From an uncultured virus (IMG/VR IMGVR_UViG_3300031539_000018) (taxonomy: Duplodnaviria > Heunggongvirae > Uroviricota > Caudoviricetes), in the IMG/VR virus record IMGVR_UViG_3300031539_000018, positions 49,346-69,345 of that record: DNA of 20,000 nt. The stretch is one strand, 5' to 3'. Made by a program: the position numbers and the translations under genes. Positions 730-16,502 of the stretch are shown one piece after another (positions within the stretch are counted from its first letter, which is position 1; each line of letters begins with the position of its first letter). The notes below the pieces were generated by a model. That model had not been told where the DNA came from. It saw only the letters and a list, made by a program, of their open reading frames with translations, and did no database searches.

Positions 730-1205
730 GAAGGCGTTACTTCGAGTGGGACTATGTCGCCAACAGGGTCATTGAGTGGGTGCGTGTGGGTACGTGCTGC
801 CGGTGCGGTGCGTGTTGCCGGGGGTCCATCGGTTACAATTTCGAGAATGTTAAGACGTACCATGCGAATAAGGCGGGCGGCTATTATACCACTGGCAGGG
901 GTGTCTGGCAGGAGATCCGTGCGGGCCGGTATCGGCACTTTTTCCGGATGGAGTACATGGCCGTGAAGGGGCGGGGGTGGTGTGGCAGTTTCGAGAATGG
1001 CCTTTGTGCTGAGTATGAGCATCGGTCCTGGATTTGCCGGGAGTGGCCCTTCTCGCCCCGGTGCATTGCGCCGTTTGCGGAGTGCACCTATGGGTTCCGT
1101 GAGGTAGACCGCTGGCCGTTCGTGGTGGATGTCCCCAAGGATCCGGCAAAAGAGGGGAAGGATGCTGGCGGTTTTGTTCATGTGCCGCGGAGAGGGGTCC
1201 CGTGA
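726..1205 (+). CDS. YkgJ-like CxxCxxCC cysteine-cluster (Zn/Fe-S) protein
   Basis: CCRCGACCRG at the N-terminus and C...LCAEYEHRSWICREWPF, matching the family C-x-x-Y-x-x-R-x-x-x-C-R-x-(F/W)-P pattern. Confidence 0.8.
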   Translation: MRRRYFEWDYVANRVIEWVRVGTCCRCGACCRGSIGYNFENVKTYHANKAGGYYTTGRGVWQEIRAGRYRHFFRMEYMAVKGRGWCGSFENGLCAEYEHRSWICREWPFSPRCIAPFAECTYGFREVDRWPFVVDVPKDPAKEGKDAGGFVHVPRRGVP

Positions 1206-1870
1206 TCACTAAGCGCCTGGTTTACATCCACGTCTTCCGGACCGGCGGGTACATGGTGCAGGGGGTCTTGCGAAAGGTCCCTGGCCTGGTGATGGTCTCT
1301 GACAGGCCCACGGAGCACCTCACCTATGCACAGATGACCACGGTATGCGCTCAGCAGCGCATGTCGAGGCCACTGGCTGCTGTGTTCGTTCGCAACCCGT
1401 TTGACTGGTACGTGTCGATGTGGTGCTGGGTCAATACGGCCCCGAATGTGCCTTCCTTCCCTAGCTTCCGGGCATACCTGGGGGCGATTGATGAGAGGCG
1501 CTTTGGCATCACGGGAACGGGGCGCAACTACAGCAGATTCACCGACCATTGGAAGGACATGGGTGCTGACTCAGCAAAGTGGACGGGACGTTTCGAGCGC
1601 CTGCAGGAGGACTTCGTGGCCATCATGCTGGAGGCCATGCCTGAACTGGTGAACGAGAAGATGCTGAGGCGCCTTATAGTCAAGGAACCCATCCATCACC
1701 CCAGCAGGCATCCCCAGACCGGCAAGCACCCAGGGGCCTATCAGCAGTACTACGATGCGGAGACGAGGGCGCTGGTAGAGGGGTGGGACGGCGCGCTGTT
1801 GGAGCGCTTCGGCTACAATTTCGAGGGGGAGGAGGCGGATGATGAAGATTTATCCCATACCGGTGCCTGA
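1202..1870 (+). CDS. Sulfotransferase-family protein
   Basis: 5'-PAPS-loop-like YIHVFRTGG, 3'-PAPS-like FVRNPFDWYVSMW, GRFERLQEDF and YQQYYD...D...FGYNF. Confidence 0.8.
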   Translation: MITKRLVYIHVFRTGGYMVQGVLRKVPGLVMVSDRPTEHLTYAQMTTVCAQQRMSRPLAAVFVRNPFDWYVSMWCWVNTAPNVPSFPSFRAYLGAIDERRFGITGTGRNYSRFTDHWKDMGADSAKWTGRFERLQEDFVAIMLEAMPELVNEKMLRRLIVKEPIHHPSRHPQTGKHPGAYQQYYDAETRALVEGWDGALLERFGYNFEGEEADDEDLSHTGA

Positions 1871-2738
1871 CGAGTTCCGGCCTGCCAGTCAGGGCTATGC
1901 CATGCCGCCACACTGCCCGGTGGAGGGTTACGGCGTGGAGCAGGACTTCGACCTGTGGCTCCGGCAGCGCCCTACCATTCTGGCCCCAAGTATTGAGGAA
2001 GCTGATTGGTACTACCTACCGGTGTACTGGAATCGTCTTTTTATCGCTACCTGGAAGTGGGCTCAGGATGAGGCCGCTATTGAGCGGTGCACCCGGTATA
2101 TCGAGGACCTCCGGGGGGCCTTGGACTTCTCGCGGGTGTTCACCGTCTGCGAGTGGGACCTGACCACGGAACGGCAGGAGATCGGGATTGGGGAGATGAC
2201 CGTGCTCACGGCAGGGCGGCGGGACCACACGGGCATCGATGTCCCTTTGCTCTGCGCGCCCCATGGTGTCCCTCCCATGCAATATGCCAAGCGGCACCTG
2301 GCGTCGTTCGTGGGCAACGTCGGAACCTCCGGCTGGCGTCAGGCCATGCAGGAGGCCCTAGAGGTCTATGACGGGTGCCTGATTGAGCACGCGCAGAACG
2401 GTTCCGCCTACTTCCGGGACGTGATGACTGAGAGCTACGTAGCCCTGGCCCCCAGGGGGCACCGGGGTCAATCGTTCAGGTTCTACGAGGCCATGGACAT
2501 GGGCGTGGCCCCGGTGCTGATCGGCGACATGGACACGCGGCCCTTCAAGAACTGGATTGATTGGGACTCATGCTCGTACTACGTGCCTGACGCCTCGGAG
2601 TTGCCGGGGTTCCTAGACGGCCTTGATTTGGAGGACGCGCTTCGTCGCGGTGTACGGGCGGCGCAGGTGTATCATGAGGAGCTGCGGTTTGGAAGGTGGT
2701 GCCGGTTCGTTGTGCCGGAGCTTTTGAGCGTGCCGTGA
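1839..2738 (+). CDS. Exostosin/GT47-like glycosyltransferase
   Basis: GGAGG RBS; EEADWYYLPVY, LASFVG and SYVALAPRGHRGQSFRFYEAMDMGVAPVLIGD...PFKNWIDW resemble exostosin motifs (LxPxG...SxRxxEAxxxGxxPV). Confidence 0.8.
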   Translation: MMKIYPIPVPDEFRPASQGYAMPPHCPVEGYGVEQDFDLWLRQRPTILAPSIEEADWYYLPVYWNRLFIATWKWAQDEAAIERCTRYIEDLRGALDFSRVFTVCEWDLTTERQEIGIGEMTVLTAGRRDHTGIDVPLLCAPHGVPPMQYAKRHLASFVGNVGTSGWRQAMQEALEVYDGCLIEHAQNGSAYFRDVMTESYVALAPRGHRGQSFRFYEAMDMGVAPVLIGDMDTRPFKNWIDWDSCSYYVPDASELPGFLDGLDLEDALRRGVRAAQVYHEELRFGRWCRFVVPELLSVP

Positions 2739-4066: not shown

Positions 4067-4271
4067 CGTGTCGCAGGAAGAGTTCGACAGGGTCCTGGCG
4101 GAGGTGGAGCGCAAGACCTGCTTCCGGTTCACGGCGGGTACGCGGAACCCCACGTCAACTGCGTTCATGGTGCCAGTCGCGTCCGACGGCAAAACTCCCA
4201 TGGGCAGCGCCACAGAGTTTTCCTGGAAGCAGTTGGTGGGTATGTCCAAACTTCCCGAGAGACCCAAGTAG
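4059..4271 (+). CDS. Hypothetical protein
   Basis: GGAGGG RBS before ATG 4059 (alternative start 4038). Confidence 0.6.
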   Translation: MANVSQEEFDRVLAEVERKTCFRFTAGTRNPTSTAFMVPVASDGKTPMGSATEFSWKQLVGMSKLPERPK

Positions 4272-4340
4272 CCGATAACCGGGGGCAACCCCGGTCACCC
4301 GCGATGCCGCCGTGCGGGTCCGATGAGGCAGAGGGCGGCA
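4271..4340 (+). ncRNA. Variant type II hammerhead-like ribozyme with loop I/3' tail pseudoknot
   Basis: GCC-GATAA-[CCGGGG GCAA CCCCGG]-TC-[ACCCGCG...TGCGGGT]-CCGATGA-GGC. Loop TGCCGCC (4305-4311) is complementary to GGCGGCA (4334-4340). Confidence 0.65.
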
Positions 4341-4363
4341 ACGGAGGACAGAGGAGGCTACCA

Positions 4364-5017
4364 ATGACTGCACTGACTCTCGATGAACAAAGTCTCAAGA
4401 CATGGCAGCGGCTGCGCCCCACGCACAAGCAGATACTGAGCCTGGGCACCAACCCCAAGCAGTTCATGCACGTGCAGATGGGCCAACTGGAGGCCTGGGG
4501 CAATGGCTTTATGCTACTGGTGGGGAACTCGCCGGATGTGCCGTGCGTGGACGAGAGAGAACGCACGGACTGGACCAACAAGCAGCATCTCCTGAAGCCG
4601 GGTTCTTGCCCTATGGATCCGCTGCTCTACGTGGAGGCCGACGGCTACAGCACGCGGGATAGGTCCCTGCTCATCATGGCTATGCTGTCGCCCACGGATG
4701 GGGCCGTGCTGGAGCACCTGACCGTCAATGCCCGCATGGCGCTCTTCATAGAACGCGAGTACAGAGCACGGTTCCCCGAGGACTGGATACTTGGCTGGCG
4801 GGGTAACTTATCGGCGGAGGCGCACATGCACGGCTGCGCCAAGGTACACCCGAGGCCGCTGACGTACTGCGTGCGGGGTCCGGCGGAGGATGGCTGGATT
4901 GGGGCAGGGGTGCTCATGCCCAGGACGGCGGGCTTTGTGAGGGCTAGGGACGGCTCCCAGGCGGTGCGGTATGATAGTGGGACTAGGATGTATCATCGTG
5001 AGGCACCTGGCGTATAG
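4364..5017 (+). CDS. Hypothetical protein
   Basis: GAGGAGG RBS before ATG 4364; long ORF; no family recognised. Confidence 0.7.
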   Translation: MTALTLDEQSLKTWQRLRPTHKQILSLGTNPKQFMHVQMGQLEAWGNGFMLLVGNSPDVPCVDERERTDWTNKQHLLKPGSCPMDPLLYVEADGYSTRDRSLLIMAMLSPTDGAVLEHLTVNARMALFIEREYRARFPEDWILGWRGNLSAEAHMHGCAKVHPRPLTYCVRGPAEDGWIGAGVLMPRTAGFVRARDGSQAVRYDSGTRMYHREAPGV

Positions 5018-6856: not shown

Positions 6857-6865
6857 GGAAACGTG

Positions 6866-8062
6866 ATGAAAGAGTACTCAATCTGGCAAGAGCAGACCTT
6901 AGCTGTAATGACGGCTATGCAGGCCAACGTGCCTGCGCTCATCTTAGGGGTGCCCGGCATCGCCAAGACGGCGTTCCTGAAAGCGGCTACGAAGGCCCTG
7001 GGATGGGATTTGTACGTGTTTATGGGCAGTATCCGGCAGCCCTCGGACATCATTGGCTACCTGGCCCCGGACTTGGAGCGCCGGGTGACTTTGGAGCTGC
7101 CCCTGGAGTGGGCGCGTAGCATCAGCGACCGCGCCACCGAGGGTCATGTGACTGTGGTGTTTCTTGAGGAGCTGACTACGGTGTTCCCTGCGATGCAGGC
7201 GGCACAACTCCGGTTCGTGCATGAGCGGTGCGTAGGCGATTGCTACCTTGGTGATAGCACCCGCATTGTGGCGGCTGCGAACCCGCCGGAGATGGCCCCT
7301 GGGGGATTTCAACTGTCACCGCCTATGGCTAACCGGTTGCTGCATCTGGGGTGGCAGGAGGACGCGGCGCATTGGGCCGACAATATGCTGCTAGACTTCC
7401 CGGCCCCGGTGCTGCCTACGTTTGATGCGGCCAAGGCGGCGGAGTCCCGTGAGCGGTGGAAGGGGTTGATTTACGCCTACATCATGGGATACCGTCGGCA
7501 GCACTTGGTGGTCATGCCTGTGGATCGGGAGGGCCGTGTGGATGAGGAGAAGGCGTCTGGGCCGTGGGCCAGTGAGCGGTCCTGGTATGAGTACCTGCTG
7601 CCCTGTTTGTCCTGGCTGGATGCTGTGCGGGGCATCTCTAAGCAACTCTATGAGAGCGTGCGGGAGCGGTTGGCGGTGGGGTCTATTGGTGCAGTGGGTG
7701 CGGAGTTCCTTCTGTGGTCCGATAACCTGGACCTCACCTCGGCGGAGGACATGCTCAAGCAGGGGTCCAAGTACGTGGTGCCGGACCGCCAGGACAGGGC
7801 CTATGCGGAGCTGGCGAACCTGGCGATTTACGTGTCCGGCAAGAAGATCACGCCGAAGATTTGGGTAGCGGCCTGGAATGTATTTGCGGCTGCGGCGGAC
7901 CAGGGCAAGACGGGCACGGCTGCGGCTGCGGCGCGGTCCCTAGCGTCCAAGGCCAGGGCTGACCTACCCCCGGTTTACGAACAGATAGCGCGGTTTCAAC
8001 CTTTGCTGGAGCGTGCGAAGATGATACCGAAACTGGATGATGACGCGGCGATGGAACTGTGA
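6866..8062 (+). CDS. MoxR-type AAA+ ATPase
   Basis: Walker A GVPGIAKT, Walker B VVFLEE, sensor-1 AAANPPE and arginine-finger region LSPPMANRL. Confidence 0.88.
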   Translation: MKEYSIWQEQTLAVMTAMQANVPALILGVPGIAKTAFLKAATKALGWDLYVFMGSIRQPSDIIGYLAPDLERRVTLELPLEWARSISDRATEGHVTVVFLEELTTVFPAMQAAQLRFVHERCVGDCYLGDSTRIVAAANPPEMAPGGFQLSPPMANRLLHLGWQEDAAHWADNMLLDFPAPVLPTFDAAKAAESRERWKGLIYAYIMGYRRQHLVVMPVDREGRVDEEKASGPWASERSWYEYLLPCLSWLDAVRGISKQLYESVRERLAVGSIGAVGAEFLLWSDNLDLTSAEDMLKQGSKYVVPDRQDRAYAELANLAIYVSGKKITPKIWVAAWNVFAAAADQGKTGTAAAAARSLASKARADLPPVYEQIARFQPLLERAKMIPKLDDDAAMEL

Positions 8063-8076
8063 GGAGGTAGGAGAAG

Positions 8077-8955
8077 ATGGGCAAGACGAGGATTGAGTGG
8101 GCTGATGAGAGCTGGAATCCAATCACGGGCTGCACCCATGCGGGTACTCCCGGCTGCGACAACTGCTATGCCCGGCGCATGGCACAGAGACTGGCGGGGC
8201 GGTTCGGGTATCCCGAGAAGCCACATCAGTTCGACGTGACGTTTCACCAGGACAAGCTGGATGAACCGCTGAGTTGGAGGAAGCCGAGAGTGGTGTTCGT
8301 GTGCTCGATGGGGGACCTGTTTCACCAGGATGTGACCTGGGAGCAGAGGGGCGATGTGTGGCAGGCGATGTATGAGGCTCCACAGCATACCTTCTTGGTA
8401 CTGACCAAGCGGCCAGCGGAGATGCGCGATTGGTTCATTGGCTATTGGCAAGAGGCAGTTGCGACCAGCGACGAGCTAATTCTATCCAACGTCTACCTCG
8501 GCGTCTCGGTCGAAACCCAAGACCAGATGTGGCGGGTCGAGGAGCTGGTCAAGATACCGGGCAAGCACTGGGTGAACTTCGGCCCGCTGTTGGGGCCCGT
8601 CACGATCCCCCCTGAGCTACTAGCACGACTTGCTGGCGCAGCCGTGGAGGGCGAATCAGGGCCAGGGGCTAGGCCAATGCACCCCGACTGGGCACGAAAC
8701 ATCAGAGATCAATGCGTAGCAGCAGAGATTCCATTTTCGTTCAAGCAATGGGGGGAGTGGGGGCCAACTTCCTACGGTGGTTCCTATGAGCGCTATCACG
8801 CATTCACAAGACCACTACCGCCGGATCCTGCACGTATGATGGTTGAGGCTCAGGTATACCGTGTTGGAAAGGCCCAGGCAGGCCGACTACTCGACGGGCA
8901 GCTCTGGAATCAGTGGCCGTGGGATGTGATAGGGGACATGGAGCATGGTGAGTGA
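8077..8955 (+). CDS. Phage Gp37/Gp68 (DUF5131) family protein
   Basis: TRIEWADESWNPITGC...GCDNCYA, FVCSMGDLFH, LTKRP, LGVSVE, GESGPGARPMHPDWAR, FKQWGEW and KAQAGRLLDG. Confidence 0.93.
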   Translation: MGKTRIEWADESWNPITGCTHAGTPGCDNCYARRMAQRLAGRFGYPEKPHQFDVTFHQDKLDEPLSWRKPRVVFVCSMGDLFHQDVTWEQRGDVWQAMYEAPQHTFLVLTKRPAEMRDWFIGYWQEAVATSDELILSNVYLGVSVETQDQMWRVEELVKIPGKHWVNFGPLLGPVTIPPELLARLAGAAVEGESGPGARPMHPDWARNIRDQCVAAEIPFSFKQWGEWGPTSYGGSYERYHAFTRPLPPDPARMMVEAQVYRVGKAQAGRLLDGQLWNQWPWDVIGDMEHGE

Positions 8956-9220
8956 GGAAGAAATGAGGAAGATCATGAGGGGTGTGCAAGCCATCGGTCG
9001 AAATAATACGGGCGTGGAAGAGGCCGCTCAGCTCCTCGCCGAAGCGATGAAGGAAGATGTGGTGTACGAAAGCACAGGGGTTGCTGACTATGATGGATGC
9101 TGTGTTCGCCTGGGCTGTGGAACTGAGCTTATCTTAGGTCCTGATGATGAGTGGGACATTCTTGACGGCCGGCAGTACCACGTGACCGTGACGGAAGAAC
9201 CTACCAATGACCAACCGTGA
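8945..9220 (+). CDS. Hypothetical protein
   Basis: Overlaps both neighbours in operon fashion; acidic 91 aa ORF. Confidence 0.6.
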   Translation: MVSEEEMRKIMRGVQAIGRNNTGVEEAAQLLAEAMKEDVVYESTGVADYDGCCVRLGCGTELILGPDDEWDILDGRQYHVTVTEEPTNDQP

Positions 9221-10568
9221 TGCTACTTTGGCGATGGACGCGGCAAGGGTGCGGCTCAACTATCTGCGTGGCTACCTTCGGGCTGTGTTGTGGACTATGC
9301 GCATGGTGCCCACTGGAGAGGTGCCCAGTATGGCTATGTCCAAGGACGCGGTGATCTACTACAACCCGGAGGAGGTAGCCAAGTGGCCCTTGGAGGCCTG
9401 CGTGACGGTCCTGTACCATGAGGTGTGCCACTGGATGCGGCGTCACTATGAGCGCATGGCAGACTTCCCGGACGAACAGTGCGCGCTCATTGCGGCGGAA
9501 TTGGAACTCCAGGGTGACATCGAGGATGAGATCAACGGTGACTCGAATCTGGATTGGCCCCCACAGGGATACATTGCACCGGGCAAGCCGCCTTTCGAGA
9601 GCTTGCTCAAGGGCCTCCTGGCTGAGGAGTATTATCGACTTCTGGAGCGGCAACAGCAGCAATCCGGTGGCGCAGGGGGCCAGCAGCAGGGCAAGGGGCG
9701 GCAACAAGGTCAAGGCCAGGGGCAGAGTCAACAGGGGCAGAGTCAACAGCAAGGTAAGGGCCAAGGCAAGGGCCAGCAAGGTCAAGACCAGCAACCAGGC
9801 CAGGGCCAGGGTTCTGTGTCTGATGGGCACTGGAAGGACTGGGAGCAGCAGGACCATCCGGAGGGCATCACTGAGGCCCAGGGGCGGCTCATTGCCCGCA
9901 AGCTGGCCCAGGACATCCAGGAGGCCGCGGAGCGTGATAAGTCGCAGCGGGGCATCGGCTCAGTACCCGGCTGGATGAAGCGTTGGGCAGAGATGCAGCT
10001 TTACTCCAAGGTGCCCTGGTACAAGGTTCTAGACCGCTGGATACGTCAGTCCATTGGGCACGTCCTGGGGTTCTCAGACTACTCATTCAGGACACCGAAC
10101 CGTAGGGCTGCGTTGAGCGGCCTCATCCTGCCGGGTTTGGTGAAGCCTGTGCCGAGGATCGCTGTGGTTCTGGACACATCAGGGTCCATGTCCGGTCATC
10201 AGGTTGGGTTGGCCCTCACGGAGATTGGCGGCGTGCTCAGGGCTATGGGGATGCTGGAGGGCGTGTGGGTACTGGCTACGGATGCGGAGGCCCATACCTG
10301 CCAGCGTGTGTTCAATCCCCGCCAGGTGGACGTTGTGGGCGGTGGGGGAACCATCCTGGAGTCGGGCATTGCACGAGCCATGAAGCTGCGGCCCCGGCCT
10401 GAGATCGTGGTCGTCATCTCGGACTGCCTGAACTATTGGGATGAGGTCAAGCCTGCCAGGGTGAGCATCGTGATCGTGCGTGTGGGCACGGGCAAGCCGC
10501 CTACGTGGGCCGACAAGGTGATTGACGTGGAGGATGTGGTAGAGGACTGGACGGTGTGGACAAGATGA
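9207..10568 (+). CDS. DUF2201-type metallopeptidase-like plus VWA domain protein (MoxR partner)
   Basis: LYHEVCH (HExxH), Gln/Gly-rich linker, MIDAS motif VVLDTSGSMS, GGGGT and VVISD. Confidence 0.88.
   Translation: MTNRDATLAMDAARVRLNYLRGYLRAVLWTMRMVPTGEVPSMAMSKDAVIYYNPEEVAKWPLEACVTVLYHEVCHWMRRHYERMADFPDEQCALIAAELELQGDIEDEINGDSNLDWPPQGYIAPGKPPFESLLKGLLAEEYYRLLERQQQQSGGAGGQQQGKGRQQGQGQGQSQQGQSQQQGKGQGKGQQGQDQQPGQGQGSVSDGHWKDWEQQDHPEGITEAQGRLIARKLAQDIQEAAERDKSQRGIGSVPGWMKRWAEMQLYSKVPWYKVLDRWIRQSIGHVLGFSDYSFRTPNRRAALSGLILPGLVKPVPRIAVVLDTSGSMSGHQVGLALTEIGGVLRAMGMLEGVWVLATDAEAHTCQRVFNPRQVDVVGGGGTILESGIARAMKLRPRPEIVVVISDCLNYWDEVKPARVSIVIVRVGTGKPPTWADKVIDVEDVVEDWTVWTR
9650..9810 (+). repeat. Low-complexity Gln/Gly-coding tract including a 15-bp tandem duplication
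   Basis: CAGGGGCAGAGTCAA twice at 9717-9746 within the QQQQSGG...GQGQ linker. Confidence 0.8.
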
Positions 10569-12877: not shown

Positions 12878-12915
12878 CTTTCTTTTGCTCCCAAAAGGTT
12901 TTAGCGATCTATAAT
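12878..12915 (+). promoter_or_regulatory. Repeated palindrome plus -10 promoter motif, copy 1
   Basis: CTTTCTTTTGCTCCCAAAAG-N12-TATAAT, with the same layout at 16465-16502. Confidence 0.75.
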
Positions 12916-12937
12916 GAGTGAGTGAAGTAAATGAGGC

Positions 12938-12966
12938 TTGACAAACCGGAAGGAATCTGCTATACT
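12938..12966 (+). promoter_or_regulatory. sigma70-type promoter upstream of tnpB
   Basis: TTGACA (12938-12943), 17 bp, TATACT (12961-12966). Confidence 0.85.
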
Positions 12967-12972
12967 GATAAT

Positions 12973-13064
12973 GCTACAGGTGCGGCGTGGTTGTTTTGTT
13001 ATAGAAGGGGTCATGCAGGCCACGCGCACCTGTAGCGGGACGCAAGGCAATGTGTGACCCCTTT
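12973..13064 (+). ncRNA. Putative pseudoknotted leader RNA of unknown class
   Basis: 17-bp stem 12973-12990/13020-13036 with one bulge; loop 13004-13017 is complementary to 13051-13064 (14 bp including G-U pairs). Confidence 0.6.
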
Positions 13065-13075
13065 GACATAAGGCG

Positions 13076-14287
13076 ATGATTGTACAGAAGAGCCATAGGA
13101 TACAACTGAGACCCAACAATGAGCACCGAAGCGGTTTCAACCGCTGGGTTGGTGCTTACCGTTGGACTTACAACTGGGCGCTAGAACAGAAGAAGACAGC
13201 CTATGAGCAAGAGGGCAAGTCACTGAGTAAGTACGGTGTGCAGAAACTCTTGACTATTGAGAAACACACGCTGGAAAGGGCGTGGCTCAATGATATCCTG
13301 CGAGACACGCTTGTCAATGCAATATGGAACATGGACAGGGCATACCAGAACTTCTTCCGGCGGGTCAAGAATGGAGAGGCCAAAAAGGGTTTCCCAAAGT
13401 TCAAGTCAAGACGGACGGCGCGGCGCGTTTTCCACGTCACGGCGTACCTCGTGCAATTGAGCGAAGACCGACGGAGCGTCAAGTTGCCTAAACTTGGATG
13501 GGTTAGGATGAGCAAGGCCCTGCGATTTGAGGGCAAGATGGTTGGGACAGTGGCTGTCAGTGAAGAGGCGGGGCGGTGGTATGCATCCTTCGTCGTTGAG
13601 ACTGAGATACCCGATCCTCCGGATCGTAGTGCTGACCCTGTGGTGGGCATCGACGTCGGTATCAAAACGCTAATGACGCTTTCTGATGGGAAGCGATATG
13701 AGAATCCGAAGGCTACCTATGAGCTAGAGAAGCTACTGGCGCGGTCACAGCGCCAACTATCCTGCAAGACTAAGGGGAGTAAGCGGCGGGCTAGGGCAAA
13801 GCTGAGAGTCCAGCGGATACAGAAGCGGATCAAGGATGTGCGGGTAAATGCGGCACATCAAGCCACGGCGGAGGTGACTAGGGACTACGGCCTCGTAGCT
13901 ATGGAGGACTTGAATGTCAAAGGCATGGTCAAGAATCGTCACTTGGCAAAGGCCGTGTCAGACTCCAATTTCAATCGGTTGCGCCAGCAGTTGACGTACA
14001 AGACCGCGTGGAGCGGCAGTAAACTGAGGCTCGTGGACCGTTGGTTCCCGTCCAGCAAGCTGTGCTCTGAGTGCGGTTGCATCAATGATAATCTGACACT
14101 TTCAGATAGGAGGTGGACTTGCGATTGTGGGGCTGTTCATGACAGGGACCTAAACGCTGCCCAGAATATTCTAGCGGCGGCGCTAAAGTTGGCCGACGAA
14201 TCGGCGGTCACTGGGCGTGGAGGGATAGGGGCCTCAAGTCCTCCCGATGAAGCGTCAAGCGGGCAGCAGGAGGTGATAGATGCATAA
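13076..14287 (+). CDS. tnpB: RNA-guided endonuclease TnpB (IS200/IS605/IS607 superfamily), catalytic motifs intact, no adjacent TnpA
   Basis: N-terminal HRIQLRPN...YRWTYNWAL, GFPKFKSR, LPKLGWVR; RuvC-I VGIDVGIK, RuvC-II AMEDLNV, Zn finger CSECG...CDCG, RuvC-III HDRDLNAAQNI. Confidence 0.95.
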   Translation: MIVQKSHRIQLRPNNEHRSGFNRWVGAYRWTYNWALEQKKTAYEQEGKSLSKYGVQKLLTIEKHTLERAWLNDILRDTLVNAIWNMDRAYQNFFRRVKNGEAKKGFPKFKSRRTARRVFHVTAYLVQLSEDRRSVKLPKLGWVRMSKALRFEGKMVGTVAVSEEAGRWYASFVVETEIPDPPDRSADPVVGIDVGIKTLMTLSDGKRYENPKATYELEKLLARSQRQLSCKTKGSKRRARAKLRVQRIQKRIKDVRVNAAHQATAEVTRDYGLVAMEDLNVKGMVKNRHLAKAVSDSNFNRLRQQLTYKTAWSGSKLRLVDRWFPSSKLCSECGCINDNLTLSDRRWTCDCGAVHDRDLNAAQNILAAALKLADESAVTGRGGIGASSPPDEASSGQQEVIDA

Positions 14288-14322
14288 GACCCGCAACCCC
14301 GAATTGACGGGGTCCTCATTCG
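14190..14322 (+). ncRNA. Putative omegaRNA/reRNA-like scaffold overlapping the tnpB 3' end
   Basis: Hairpin GCCGA-CGAA-TCGGC, a GGGCGTGGAG...CTCCCGATGAAGCGTC segment resembling TnpB right-end RNAs, and hairpin ACCCCG-AATTGA-CGGGGT. Boundaries are inferred. Confidence 0.5.
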
Positions 14323-14346
14323 CGTGGGCAATGGCTATTGTGAAGG

Positions 14347-14624
14347 GTGCACCCCATGCGCATGTGGGGGATTCGCGCAGATGCGGGTCTGAAACGACGA
14401 CCCCAAACGTGCACCCCATGCGCATGTGGGGGATTCGTACGGCAAGTATTGCCAGAAGCCGCAGAAACCCGTGCACCCCATGCGCATGTGGGGGATTCGT
14501 TGGCCCTGTGCTTGCGGCTGCGCAGGACGAAGTGCACCCCATGCGCATGTGGGGGATTCGTCAAATGACAAGCGATTGCACGCCAGCATACGTGTACCCC
14601 ATGCGTATGTGAGGGGGGGATTCG
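14347..14624 (+). CRISPR. Mini CRISPR-like array: four identical 29-bp repeats, one degenerate terminal repeat, four spacers
   Basis: GTGCACCCCATGCGCATGTGGGGGATTCG at 14347, 14409, 14471 and 14532; degenerate GTGTACCCCATGCGTATGTGAGGGGGGGATTCG at 14592-14624; unique spacers of 33, 33, 32 and 31 bp. The CCCC...GGGG stem recalls type I-E repeats. Confidence 0.93.
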
Positions 14625-14635
14625 GTGGAGACTAA

Positions 14636-15949
14636 ATGAGCGAACCCTATGATGTGGACGTAGAGAGGTCGGCCCTCGGCAGCTTGCTCCTGGACCCCGC
14701 ACTCTTGGCTGAGGCTGAGGCTGTGTTGCTCCCAGAGGACTTCTACCGGGAGGCGCACAGCACAGTCTACGGGGCCATGCTGGAGCTGTGGCGCTCAGGT
14801 TCGGCGCTGGATTACACGCTGCTATGCCGGGCCTTGGAGGACCGCGGACACTTGGAGGCTGTGGGCGGGACGGCATACGTGGCTTCGCTCATTGAGGCCA
14901 CACCGACCAGTGCTCATTTCGCGTCCTATGCCCGCGAGGTTCTGGCCCTGGCGAATCGGCGCCGCTTGATAGTGGCGGGTATTGAGTTGCAGAACATGGC
15001 CTGCGAGGGCGGCTACGGTGTGCCGGAACTCCTGGAGCAGGCTCAGGTCTTGCTCAATCAGGTTTCTGTGAGGGCCGATTTGCAAGGAGCGGTAGTGCCT
15101 TTCGAGAGTGCTTTGGAGGCCTACTGGAGTGCATTGGCGATGGAGCTGTCGGGCGCGGTGACGCGGATTCCCTTTGGGTTCCGAGACCTGGACTCATTGG
15201 TTGGGGGATTGAAGCCGGGGGACCTGTGCTATATCGGGGGCCGGCCAAGTATGGGCAAAACTACTTTGTGCCTGCAAGCGGCCCTGAACCTGGCTAAGTT
15301 GGGCGTGGGTCCGACGGTGGTGTTCTCGGTGGAGAGCACGGAACCGGAGTTGGCAGGTCGCATCCTTGGCTATGCCACTGGGGTGACCTCGGACGCCATG
15401 CGGAAGCGCACGGTGGATGTAGAGGCTATGTCCTGGGTAGGGCAGGTTGCGTCTGTGCTGGAGATCCCCGTGTTGCTGCGGGAGGATTACGACCTCTCAC
15501 CGGCGGGGATTGATGCGGCGCTCACGTCCATGCCCCAGCCTCCCCGGCTGGTGGTGGTGGACCACGTGCACCGTATGGAGGGGGGCCGCAGGTTCAGGGA
15601 CCGTCGGGAGGAGGTGACGTACATCTCGCGGCGGTTAAAGTCCCTGGCGCAGAAGCATTCGGTCCCGGTGGTGGCGGTATGCACCCTGAGCCGGATGGTG
15701 GAGAACCGCAAGCCACCGAGGCCCATGCTGGCGGATTTGAAGGAATCGGGAGACCTGGAGCATGATGCGGACGTGGTGATTATGCTGTACTGGGCTGGTC
15801 ACTACGATTCGGAAAGCCCCAGGCAGTTTGTGACCGAGGCCATTGTGGCCAAGCACCGGGACGGTCCCACGGGCACGGCGTATCTTCGGCGCGGGGGCCA
15901 GGGGCAATTGAGCGACCTGGTGTGTAAGAATGATTTGATGATGCTTTAA
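14636..15949 (+). CDS. dnaB: Replicative DNA helicase, DnaB family
   Basis: N-terminal ERSALGSLL...PEDFYREAH; Walker A GGRPSMGKTT; VVVDHV; LADLKESGDLEHDADVV; IVAKHRDGPTG. Confidence 0.97.
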   Translation: MSEPYDVDVERSALGSLLLDPALLAEAEAVLLPEDFYREAHSTVYGAMLELWRSGSALDYTLLCRALEDRGHLEAVGGTAYVASLIEATPTSAHFASYAREVLALANRRRLIVAGIELQNMACEGGYGVPELLEQAQVLLNQVSVRADLQGAVVPFESALEAYWSALAMELSGAVTRIPFGFRDLDSLVGGLKPGDLCYIGGRPSMGKTTLCLQAALNLAKLGVGPTVVFSVESTEPELAGRILGYATGVTSDAMRKRTVDVEAMSWVGQVASVLEIPVLLREDYDLSPAGIDAALTSMPQPPRLVVVDHVHRMEGGRRFRDRREEVTYISRRLKSLAQKHSVPVVAVCTLSRMVENRKPPRPMLADLKESGDLEHDADVVIMLYWAGHYDSESPRQFVTEAIVAKHRDGPTGTAYLRRGGQGQLSDLVCKNDLMML

Positions 15950-16464: not shown

Positions 16465-16502
16465 CTTTCTTTTGCTCCCAAAAGATTCTAGGGGGCTATA
16501 AT
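16465..16502 (+). promoter_or_regulatory. Repeated palindrome plus -10 promoter motif, copy 2
   Basis: CTTTCTTTTGCTCCCAAAAG-N12-TATAAT followed by a GGAGGT RBS and a gene start. Confidence 0.75.

What the first reader, a model, noticed from the sequence alone, without database searches (positions are those of the whole stretch)
12938..14624. Phage-borne TnpB with intact catalytic motifs directly followed by a CRISPR-like mini-array: candidate nascent type V-like system
Seen: a 403-aa TnpB with all three RuvC acidic motifs and the Zn finger, its own near-consensus promoter, no TnpA, and a 5-repeat/4-spacer array starting 59 bp after its stop on the same inferred strand (the degenerate repeat is distal). 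No cas1, cas2, cas6 or Cascade genes were recognised in the window. Established: Cas12 lineages arose repeatedly from TnpB that acquired arrays, and phages also carry cas-less mini-arrays that use host machinery. Inference: this TnpB may use the spacers as multiple guides against competing elements or the host, as a TnpB-to-Cas12 intermediate. The alternative is a chance insertion beside an array that hijacks host type I-E.
Basis: partly seen in the sequence, partly recalled or inferred. Interest (0 to 1): 0.92.

Follow-up and report, generated by a model that had tools for sequence, protein, structure and literature searches.

The report
Phage TnpB guided by CRISPR spacers
A phage carries a small transposon-type DNA cutter (TnpB) whose guide-RNA scaffold runs into a short CRISPR array, and across relatives the end of each repeat changes in step with the scaffold loop it should pair with, which suggests a compact, multi-guide nuclease caught early on the way from transposon to CRISPR-Cas12.

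Summary
Observation confirmed. The scaffold's pseudoknot loop (CGAAUC) is complementary to the repeat's 3' end (GAUUCG), which puts each spacer at the guide position. The layout recurs: 20 array-bearing TnpB loci in three tree groups, including 4 of 5 close homologues with enough flank. Loop and repeat end covary over 15 combinations (permutation p=2e-5). The arrays share the leader junction and 29+32 geometry of Anaerolineae type I-E arrays but not their ACCG handle, so host Cas1-Cas2 probably adds spacers that TnpB, not Cascade, uses. Two spacers of a relative hit this phage or its sister beside ...GG. Against: the two targets seen for the window's own spacers lack GG; no RNA or cleavage data exist; no long anti-repeat was found. 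It works like TranC and Thermus-phage Cas12r but matched neither tested protein: a new variant of a known kind. The scan noted a similar layout on other DNA (e1-5925203). Jin 2025 and the V-U tables could not be read, so prior cataloguing is not excluded.

The parts
12878..12918 (+). Phage promoter-like motif into which the cassette is inserted: AAGG at 12895-12898, then 20 nt with TATAAT (12910-12915). Putative empty-site target
   Evidence: Recurs in both phages. The 20 nt after the sister phage's terminal repeat match 12899-12918 at 17 of 20; 0 of 60 shuffles gave such a hit
12919..14624 (+). Whole tnpB-omegaRNA-array cassette
   Evidence: Identity shared with the sister phage becomes exact at 12919 while flanks are 72-74% identical; joint 12918 to 14685 in 4 of 4 runs laid (30-letter side, sequence between not known)
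12938..12966 (+). Cassette's own sigma-70-type promoter
   Evidence: 11 of 12 consensus matches; conserved in L094, L099, L103
12972..13078 (+). Structured 5' leader with two alternative or pseudoknotted helices, one covering the ribosome binding site; role unknown
   Evidence: Fold z -4.0; 4 of 25 consensus pairs with changes on both sides, 4 sequences
13076..14287 (+). tnpB, 403 aa, catalytically intact, no domain insertions
   Evidence: aligns over residues 1-383 with ISDra2 TnpB (8H1J, E 9e-72)
14190..14313 (+). omegaRNA scaffold: 5' stem-loop 14190-14210 with pseudoknot loop 14197-14202, core helix 14214-14218/14252-14256, stem 14259-14263/14290-14294, terminal hairpin 14296-14313
   Evidence: Weak Rfam Transposase-2 match at 14249-14315 (E 0.019, below gathering score); stems kept with paired changes in 7 aligned loci, read by eye; helices located by script
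14314..14346 (+). Linker/leader; residual 5-bp loop partner at 14317-14322 (window phage only); ends in GAAGG like host I-E leaders
14347..14624 (+). Mini-array: repeats 14347-14375, 14409-14437, 14471-14499, 14532-14560, degenerate 14592-14624; each is a hairpin plus a 3' GATTCG that complements the scaffold loop
14376..14408 (+). Spacer 1; matches a non-array contig in the laid runs
   Evidence: Loose ends at 14376 in 4 of 4 runs and at 14410 in one; first 20 nt not in IMG/VR outside own arrays
14438..14470 (+). Spacer 2; no target found
14500..14531 (+). Spacer 3; matches from its second base a contig that also carries the spacer 1 target on the other strand
   Evidence: Loose ends at 14501 in 4 of 4 runs; joint 14410/14531 in 3 of 4 runs
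14561..14591 (+). Spacer 4; no target found
   Evidence: searched only in fetched DNA, plasmid and phage collections
14636..15949 (+). dnaB-like helicase, downstream phage gene (context)
   Evidence: PF00772, PF03796

Best explanation
A domesticated, TnpA-less TnpB cassette in which a type I-E-like mini-array has replaced the transposon right end. One transcript (inferred) carries tnpB, the omegaRNA scaffold and the array. The last bases of each repeat pair with the scaffold's 5' loop to form the pseudoknot that the transposon end normally completes, so the spacer that follows becomes the TnpB guide: in cis for spacer 1, and by looping or in trans after processing (host Cas6e or TnpB itself; not resolved) for the others. 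The leader junction and repeat hairpin let the host's type I-E Cas1-Cas2 add new spacers. TnpB then cuts competing mobile elements beside a short G-rich motif, probably ending in GG. Shown: anatomy, recurrence, loop/repeat covariation, spacer turnover, some protospacers. Inferred: expression, guide loading, cleavage, the motif, the source of spacers.
For: (1) Loop CGAAUC pairs over 6 bp with the repeat end; none of 84 linker 7-mers pairs as well. PMC10097598 (passages) places this pseudoknot at positions -6 to -2 before the guide. (2) Covariation: 15 unique loop/end combinations from 18 loci score 63.5 against 49.5 +/- 3.4 permuted (p=2e-5); 11 clade-2 combinations p=0.005; five rows from separate branches p=0.009; three host I-E ends score 35-43. 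(3) Array-less relatives carry the loop's partner at their own scaffold end, for example L095 at 77% identity, L102, L137 (read by eye). (4) 4 of 5 homologues at 69-82% with enough flank have the same repeat type with different spacers; sister phage B has the same repeat and two other spacers. (5) All 17 array-bearing proteins checked keep D-E-D. (6) 37 of 42 spacers are 31-34 nt; AGG precedes the first repeat in 14 of 20 TnpB arrays and 13 of 26 Anaerolineae-class I-E arrays, while all 23 readable host repeats end ACC(G), TCCG or ACCC (counted by eye). (7) L100 spacer 1 matches phage B at 32 of 32 after TAGGG; spacer 3 matches phage A at 28 of 32 after ACAGG and phage B over its first 20 nt after CAGGG; phage B's terminal repeat points at a promoter after AAAGG. 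An IS607 TnpB motif of TGGG is published (10.1101/2023.11.20.567912, passages).
Against: The only targets seen for the window's own spacers do not follow GG: the flank before spacer 1 ends AGC and that before spacer 3 ends GTT with a mismatch at base 1 (loose-end table). They may be escape variants, or the motif may be wrong. Only 3 of 42 spacers had a credible match in 2.07 Mb of fetched DNA, so the motif rests on two spacers of one relative and one terminal guide. The window scaffold keeps a 5-bp loop partner of its own at 14317-14322, so a cis guide could compete. Pairing is weak in L105 and L148 (score 3), and 7 of 18 linkers hold an equally good 7-mer. No extended anti-repeat exceeds shuffles, so a trans complex would rest on 4-6 bp plus protein contacts. 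The scaffold fold is no more stable than shuffles (z +1.1 to +1.6). The hairpin rule was tightened after three mis-picks (first pass p=1e-4) and four repeat lengths were set by hand. The host is inferred, not shown.
Confidence: 0.72

Rival explanations
1. Cas-less phage mini-array that loads host type I-E Cascade (or acts as an RNA anti-CRISPR); TnpB is a neighbour or a linked homing gene.
For: Repeat length, hairpin, spacer length and leader junction are I-E-like; 38 of 301 Anaerolineae-class genomes carry I-E cas2; one target follows AGG and AAG lies one base off before the spacer 1 target. Virus-borne mini-arrays are published (PMC6858448, search listing only).
Against: The handle differs from all 23 readable host repeats and tracks the omegaRNA loop instead; the repeat type was found only beside tnpB (5 of 5); exact repeat absent from GTDB genomes; two targets follow GGG; one match covers only the first 20 nt, as suits a TnpB-length guide.
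Confidence: 0.1
2. Only one position is a working guide: spacer 1 in the continuous scaffold-repeat-spacer RNA, or the terminal repeat plus flank as a homing guide. Other spacers are a record of past guides.
For: No long anti-repeat to hold a trans crRNA; phage B's terminal guide resembles the cassette-less promoter, with the insertion point 20 nt from AAGG; many arrays hold only 1-2 spacers.
Against: All full repeats keep the pairing end; non-first spacers have targets (L100 spacer 3; window spacer 3); L005 and L230 carry a separate scaffold-array unit upstream of tnpB; the window's own terminal flank matches nothing at under 4 mismatches.
Confidence: 0.11
3. Dual use: the same crRNAs serve both TnpB and host Cascade, or TnpB mainly drives homing of the cassette with the array as useful cargo.
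For: Cassette nearly identical in two phages that differ by over a quarter of bases in the flanks; a cassette-less allele seems to coexist; AGG would suit both machines (I-E PAM tolerance recalled).
Against: No window spacer matches either phage at up to 9 mismatches; the recoded handle should hinder Cascade (inference; PMC4787809 passages show handle bases are contacted).
Confidence: 0.07

Closest known systems
TranC transposon-CRISPR intermediates (Jin et al., Cell 2025, not held; known through passages of PMC13565253, PMC13639567, 10.1101/2025.09.28.678669 and 10.64898/2026.03.27.714800), notably phage-borne CauTranC9
   Same: TnpB-sized effector without added domains, CRISPR array, no cas genes, reRNA function shared between scaffold and repeat, repeated origins from IS605/IS607 TnpB, phage carriage.
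   Different: Described TranC repeats are 32-38 bp of unknown subtype (38 bp for clade 9); here 27-30 bp and I-E-like with an I-E leader junction. No long anti-repeat: the scaffold keeps its terminal hairpin and only the pseudoknot strand moves to the repeat. LaTranC aligns only over the RuvC end (E 2e-25).
Cas12r of Thermus Lalka phages (10.64898/2026.04.20.719267; abstract, passages and Discussion read)
   Same: Phage TnpB-like nuclease followed by 29-bp I-E-like repeats and 31-33-nt spacers; host I-E adaptation proposed; purine-rich PAM (ARG); targets other mobile elements.
   Different: 564 aa, crRNA-only, 15 bp between gene and array, repeat still ends ACCG; not alignable with this protein (best E 0.032). 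Here a canonical 403-aa TnpB keeps a full scaffold.
ISDra2 TnpB-omegaRNA (PMC10097598, passages) and IS607 CboTnpB (10.1101/2023.11.20.567912, passages)
   Same: Protein colinear with ISDra2 TnpB; same 5' loop/3' end pseudoknot; GG-ending motif as in IS607.
   Different: No transposase; the single flank-derived guide is replaced by an array of variable spacers.
V-U predicted systems of the typical TnpB clade (PMC10691335, passages; one supplement searched)
   Same: CRISPR associations of 300-450-aa DRDXN TnpBs lacking adaptation genes.
   Different: The passages seen give no I-E link or pseudoknot covariation ('type I-E' 0 and 'pseudoknot' 0 occurrences in the main text). Its sequence tables (S2, S4) were not visible, so overlap is untested.
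Cas12n (V-U4) and Cas12f
   Same: Guide scaffold encoded at or after the gene's 3' end; Cas12u4 and Cas12f profiles score 255-262 bits.
   Different: They use an anti-repeat stem and have expanded REC/WED domains; NCBIfam C2c8 and Cas12f2 models stay far below cut-off.

Membership tests
RNA-guided TnpB (typical clade) | Family profile over its curated cut-off | tested here: met
   NF040570 294.7 vs 100 bits
RNA-guided TnpB (typical clade) | RuvC D-E-D, DRDXN motif, C4 zinc finger | tested here: met
   D193, E277, D358; C330/333/349/351
RNA-guided TnpB (typical clade) | omegaRNA overlapping the gene's 3' end with 5' stem-loop and pseudoknot | tested here: met
   (sequence-level; no RNA data)
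IS607 element | Serine recombinase TnpA and intact element ends | tested here: not met
   PF00239 absent from G000 and G001; right end replaced by the array
IS607 element | IS607 TnpB equivalog profile; GG-ending target motif | tested here: inconclusive
   NF038280 251 vs cut-off 350, IS200_TnpB 320 vs 425; GG before 3 matches and one terminal guide but not before the window's two targets
TranC | Compact TnpB-derived effector stably linked to an array, without cas genes | tested here: met
TranC | reRNA split into tracrRNA and crRNA that pair | tested here: inconclusive
   Pseudoknot pairing covaries; no extended anti-repeat; separate RNAs not observed
TranC | Placement in a named TranC clade | tested here: inconclusive
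TranC | crRNA-guided DNA cleavage | not testable with these tools
   Needs biochemistry
Cas12r | Homology to LalCas12r | tested here: not met
   Best E 0.032
Cas12r | Phage-borne, 29-bp I-E-like repeats, 31-33-nt spacers | tested here: met
Cas12r | crRNA only, no scaffold RNA | tested here: not met
   A conserved scaffold lies between gene and array; its requirement is untested
Cas12f / Cas12n | Subtype profile over cut-off; anti-repeat stem | tested here: not met
   PADLOC hits have no cut-off and are shared by all four TnpBs scanned
Type I-E array for host Cascade | 29+32 geometry, hairpin, leader junction | tested here: met
Type I-E array for host Cascade | Repeat equal to a host repeat, with ACCG-type handle | tested here: not met
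   0 exact matches in GTDB genomes; 0 of 23 readable host repeats share the end; true host unknown
Type I-E array for host Cascade | I-E PAM (AAG-like) beside protospacers | tested here: inconclusive
   GGG, GGG, AGG; AGC, GTT

The most novel reading that the evidence does not exclude
A second, repeatable route from TnpB to type V CRISPR, different from splitting the scaffold's last stem: an unmodified TnpB plugs into the host's type I-E pipeline. Leader and hairpin are kept for Cas1-Cas2 (and perhaps Cas6e), while the crRNA 5' handle is recoded into the pseudoknot strand of the omegaRNA, so 4-6 bp turn any acquired spacer into a TnpB guide. It arose in at least three TnpB lineages, is used both by phages and by host-side loci against each other, and an array-less sister at 77% identity shows the state next to it.
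Probability: 0.4. Interest if true: 0.9.

Novelty: new variant of a known kind. Interest (0 to 1): 0.76.

Why it matters
How TnpB gained arrays and access to spacer acquisition is an open step in the origin of Cas12. These loci name a concrete, testable link: a few bases of repeat that complete the omegaRNA pseudoknot, plus a borrowed I-E leader. Near-identical proteins with and without an array (77-82%), natural loop/repeat swaps and three separate lineages make the transition directly testable. If it works, it is also a roughly 400-aa nuclease programmed by a natural multi-spacer array, with a short, non-T-rich motif.

Tried and rejected
Rfam at gathering score: nothing in the window. Self-targeting and A-versus-B targeting: none of 6 spacers matched G000 or G001 outside its own array at up to 9 mismatches. 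IMG/VR exact search of the first 20 nt of spacers 1 and 2: own arrays only; spacers 3 and 4 were not scanned there. Array against plasmid and phage collections: chance-level hits only. Two degenerate repeat patterns found nothing in 5 and 201 genomes; the second was too narrow, since arrays were later seen beside cas2. DnaB search for sister phages gave only phage A records. The L009 search gave no close relative. No close clade-1 member in GTDB genomes: 20 loci, best full-length 43%, none with an array. Extended anti-repeat in the 5' leader or scaffold: not above shuffles. IS607 left-end comparison to read a parental motif failed. AlphaFold on a 10-sequence alignment gave pLDDT 63.7 with a poor RuvC, so no fold search was run. 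Sequencing runs: no RNA holder listed. The careful tree did not finish; quick and FastTree trees were used. Reading the repeats as reversed I-E repeats was rejected because the leader junction and degenerate distal repeat fit the + strand. L269 and L275 have 60-66-nt tandem repeats on both sides of tnpB that are not I-E-like and were not counted. Low depth over spacer 4 in the laid contigs is not taken as evidence.
Full report
1. Observation. The gene, promoter and array are as described. tnpB spans 13076-14287 (403 aa), passes the guided-TnpB cut-off but not the IS200, IS607, C2c8 or Cas12f2 cut-offs, keeps D193/E277/D358 and the zinc finger and is colinear with ISDra2 TnpB over residues 1-383 (E 9e-72). 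Four identical 29-nt repeats and a degenerate fifth enclose spacers of 33, 33, 32 and 31 nt; there is no other copy in the 69-kb record. The record is a tailed phage, 93% complete, without cas6e or a serine recombinase.

2. The 3' end of tnpB and the next 26 nt encode an omegaRNA scaffold (14190-14313): a weak Rfam Transposase-2 match (E 0.019, under the gathering score), a 5' stem-loop, the core helix and a terminal hairpin, kept with paired changes in seven aligned loci (read by eye). In ISDra2 the loop of the 5' stem pairs with bases -6 to -2 before the guide (PMC10097598, passages). Here the loop CGAAUC (14197-14202) is the exact complement of the last six bases of each repeat. The repeat is a hairpin followed by this strand, so it mimics the end of an omegaRNA, and the spacer sits at the guide position.

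3. Relatives. IMG/VR gave four near-identical loci among 80. They resolve into this phage (A) and a sister phage (B); the 143-kb record G001 looks like a figure-eight join of both (inference), and G002 and G003 show the B and A arrangements separately. B is 72-74% identical in the flanks, 98% in TnpB, has the same repeat and two different spacers. The shared sequence becomes exact at 12919. Contigs of 4 of 4 runs laid (of 6 listed, all soil metagenomes of one year, perhaps one campaign) join 12918 to 14685 at a depth near that of tnpB in X1 (108 vs 122), which points to a cassette-less allele; the side is only 30 letters at likeness 88, so this is a hint. The metagenome scan (best 80 of 543) gave nine further homologues at 69-92%. 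Four end before the array position. Of the other five, four (L097, L098, L100, L101) carry the same repeat type with new spacers; L095 (77%) has none in 557 nt and its scaffold ends in its own loop partner. L100 lies beside a sigma-54 gene and L097 beside a protease and an integrase fragment, so they may be host-side. More distant TnpBs (37-43%) also carry I-E-like arrays. Among 218 distinct TnpB loci with at least 250 nt downstream, a strict detector found tandem repeats in 18: 16 I-E-like and 2 of another kind. Four more were added by eye (L097, L098, L116 with one repeat at a contig end, L119), giving 20. The sample was enriched by searching with array-bearing proteins, so this is no prevalence estimate. 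They fall in three tree groups: the window's clade, a 14-row clade with 13 arrays, and L009. An AU test on 32 of those 56 rows rejects one clade (p=0.0003; group named after seeing trees, LG+G4). Independent gains or swaps of the RNA module would both fit. In the reverse direction, a degenerate repeat pattern hit 5 IMG/VR loci, all beside tnpB.

4. Covariation test. For 18 loci (duplicates L003, L101, L229 left out) a script located the 5' loop and scored its pairing with the last 7 nt of the repeat. Fifteen unique combinations gave 63.5 against 49.5 +/- 3.4 in 50,000 permutations (p=2e-5); clade 2 alone p=0.005; five rows from separate branches p=0.009; three host I-E ends scored 35-43. Examples: GAAUC/GAUUC (window), CAAAC/GUUUG (L104, L107), UAAGC/GCUUA (L121), GGUC/GACC (L005), CCUG/CAGG (L009). 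In 11 of 18 loci no linker 7-mer pairs as well; in 7 one does, and L105 and L148 pair weakly. No long anti-repeat was found. Array-less IS607-like neighbours show the same loop pairing with their own element end (by eye; the IS607 label rests on recalled end and TnpA motifs).

5. Link to type I-E. The GTDB homologues are mostly Chloroflexota, so I sampled the class of an Anaerolineae genome: 38 of 301 have I-E cas2, and 26 of 30 loci read showed arrays. Thirteen of 26 have AGG before the first repeat, as do 14 of 20 TnpB arrays (by eye); unit lengths agree, and 37 of 42 spacers are 31-34 nt. But all 23 readable host repeats end ACC(G), TCCG or ACCC, none like the TnpB arrays, and the exact window repeat is absent from the GTDB collection. 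The reading is that the parts Cas1-Cas2 needs are kept and the handle is recoded for TnpB. The host itself is not identified.

6. Targets. Of 42 spacers searched in 2.07 Mb of fetched DNA, three had credible matches. L100 spacer 1 matches phage B at 32 of 32 after TAGGG. L100 spacer 3 matches phage A at 28 of 32 after ACAGG (just beyond the window's end, L333) and phage B over its first 20 nt after CAGGG. L009 spacer 2 matches its own upstream region at 29 of 32. The 20 nt after B's terminal repeat match the promoter at window 12899-12918 at 17 of 20, after AAAGG, with the cassette starting 20 nt from that motif; 0 of 60 shuffles did so, but the promoter is a repeated phage motif, so this may be a remnant of the insertion. 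These share GG, like the TGGG motif of an IS607 TnpB (10.1101/2023.11.20.567912, passages). Against this, the laid contigs show targets for window spacers 1 and 3 on one abundant contig (joint in 3 of 4 runs, depth 292 in X1), and their flanks end AGC and GTT, with a first-base mismatch in spacer 3 (extent of match inferred from end places, 11 rows hidden). Escape is plausible but unproven. No window spacer matches A or B.

7. Mechanism. Most likely (0.72): TnpB loads scaffold plus repeat-end plus spacer and cuts rival elements; host I-E Cas1-Cas2 refreshes the array. Whether distal spacers act by looping or after processing, and by which enzyme, is open. Rivals: Cascade hijack with TnpB as neighbour (0.10), a single working guide position (0.11), dual use or homing (0.07).

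8. Known systems. It works like TranC and like Cas12r. TranC is known to me only through passages of four papers (one section); the primary paper is not held. CauTranC9 is also phage-borne and TnpB-sized but has 38-bp repeats. Cas12r (abstract, passages, Discussion) has 29-bp I-E-like repeats and proposed host I-E adaptation, but is 564 aa, needs no scaffold, keeps ACCG and does not align with this protein. PMC10691335 (passages, one supplement searched) reports many array links of typical TnpBs, but its tables were not visible. Five searches on TnpB with arrays (listings and abstract starts) showed no paper describing a retained scaffold whose loop covaries with a recoded I-E handle; subscription journals and bioRxiv supplements are outside these searches. 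The scan's notes hold a similar layout on another genome (e1-5925203), unchecked here and read after my own analysis.

9. Verdict. Real, recurrent and probably functional; a new variant of a known kind. Interest 0.76: the class is published, but the pseudoknot-only coupling to borrowed I-E adaptation, seen in three lineages with an array-less sister, makes a step in Cas12 origin directly testable.

Noticed in passing
window 12972-13078: The tnpB 5' leader can form a long hairpin (12973-13036) or a helix that covers the ribosome binding site; both helices show paired changes in L094, and L102 and L123 have similar leaders. Possible translational switch; no convincing Rfam match.
   Followed up: partly
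window 12878-12918 and 16465-16500; G000 24977, 32227, 33468, 42983: A family of phage promoters with an inverted repeat (CTTTTGC...AAAAG) upstream of TATAAT-like boxes, 8 copies in G000 at up to 6 mismatches; possible operator sites.
   Followed up: partly
G001 (143,142 bp): Appears to be a chimeric figure-eight assembly of two related 69-74-kb phages joined through the shared tnpB cassette.
   Followed up: partly
L005:2700-2990 and L230 (about 360 nt upstream of tnpB): A stand-alone scaffold-plus-array unit lies upstream of tnpB; L005 also keeps a second scaffold with the same loop at the gene's 3' end, and L230's unit has its own promoter-like site.
   Followed up: partly
L009:2759-2790 and 4257-4422: Spacer 2 matches the locus's own sequence about 230 nt upstream of tnpB (29 of 32): possible autoregulation or insertion-site remnant.
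   Followed up: no
L097, L100, L101: Close homologues in apparently cellular context (sigma-54 gene; protease and integrase fragment); L100 targets phages A and B, and spacers of all three share a 10-11-nt motif found in phage B at L088:9068-9079.
   Followed up: partly
contigs of runs X1, X3, X5, X6 laid on window 14376-14531: An abundant unidentified element carries the targets of spacers 1 and 3 tail to tail, next to an inverted repeat; not in IMG/VR by the spacer 1 search.
   Followed up: partly
L269, L275, L300: Large phages with 60-66-nt tandem repeats beside tnpB (both sides in L269 and L275), not I-E-like.
   Followed up: no
L003:4450-4545: Between phage B's array and dnaB lies a run of short imperfect GGTGTGGCGAGG-like repeats, absent from phage A.
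   Followed up: no
window 1202-2738, 6863-10568: The phage carries an exostosin GT47-like glycosyltransferase, an AAA ATPase with a DUF2201 metallopeptidase/vWA partner and a DUF5131 gene; further glycosyltransferase and sugar epimerase genes lie outside the window.
   Followed up: no
L227: A clade-2 TnpB on a virus record with scaffold but no array: a second possible loss or ancestral state.
   Followed up: no
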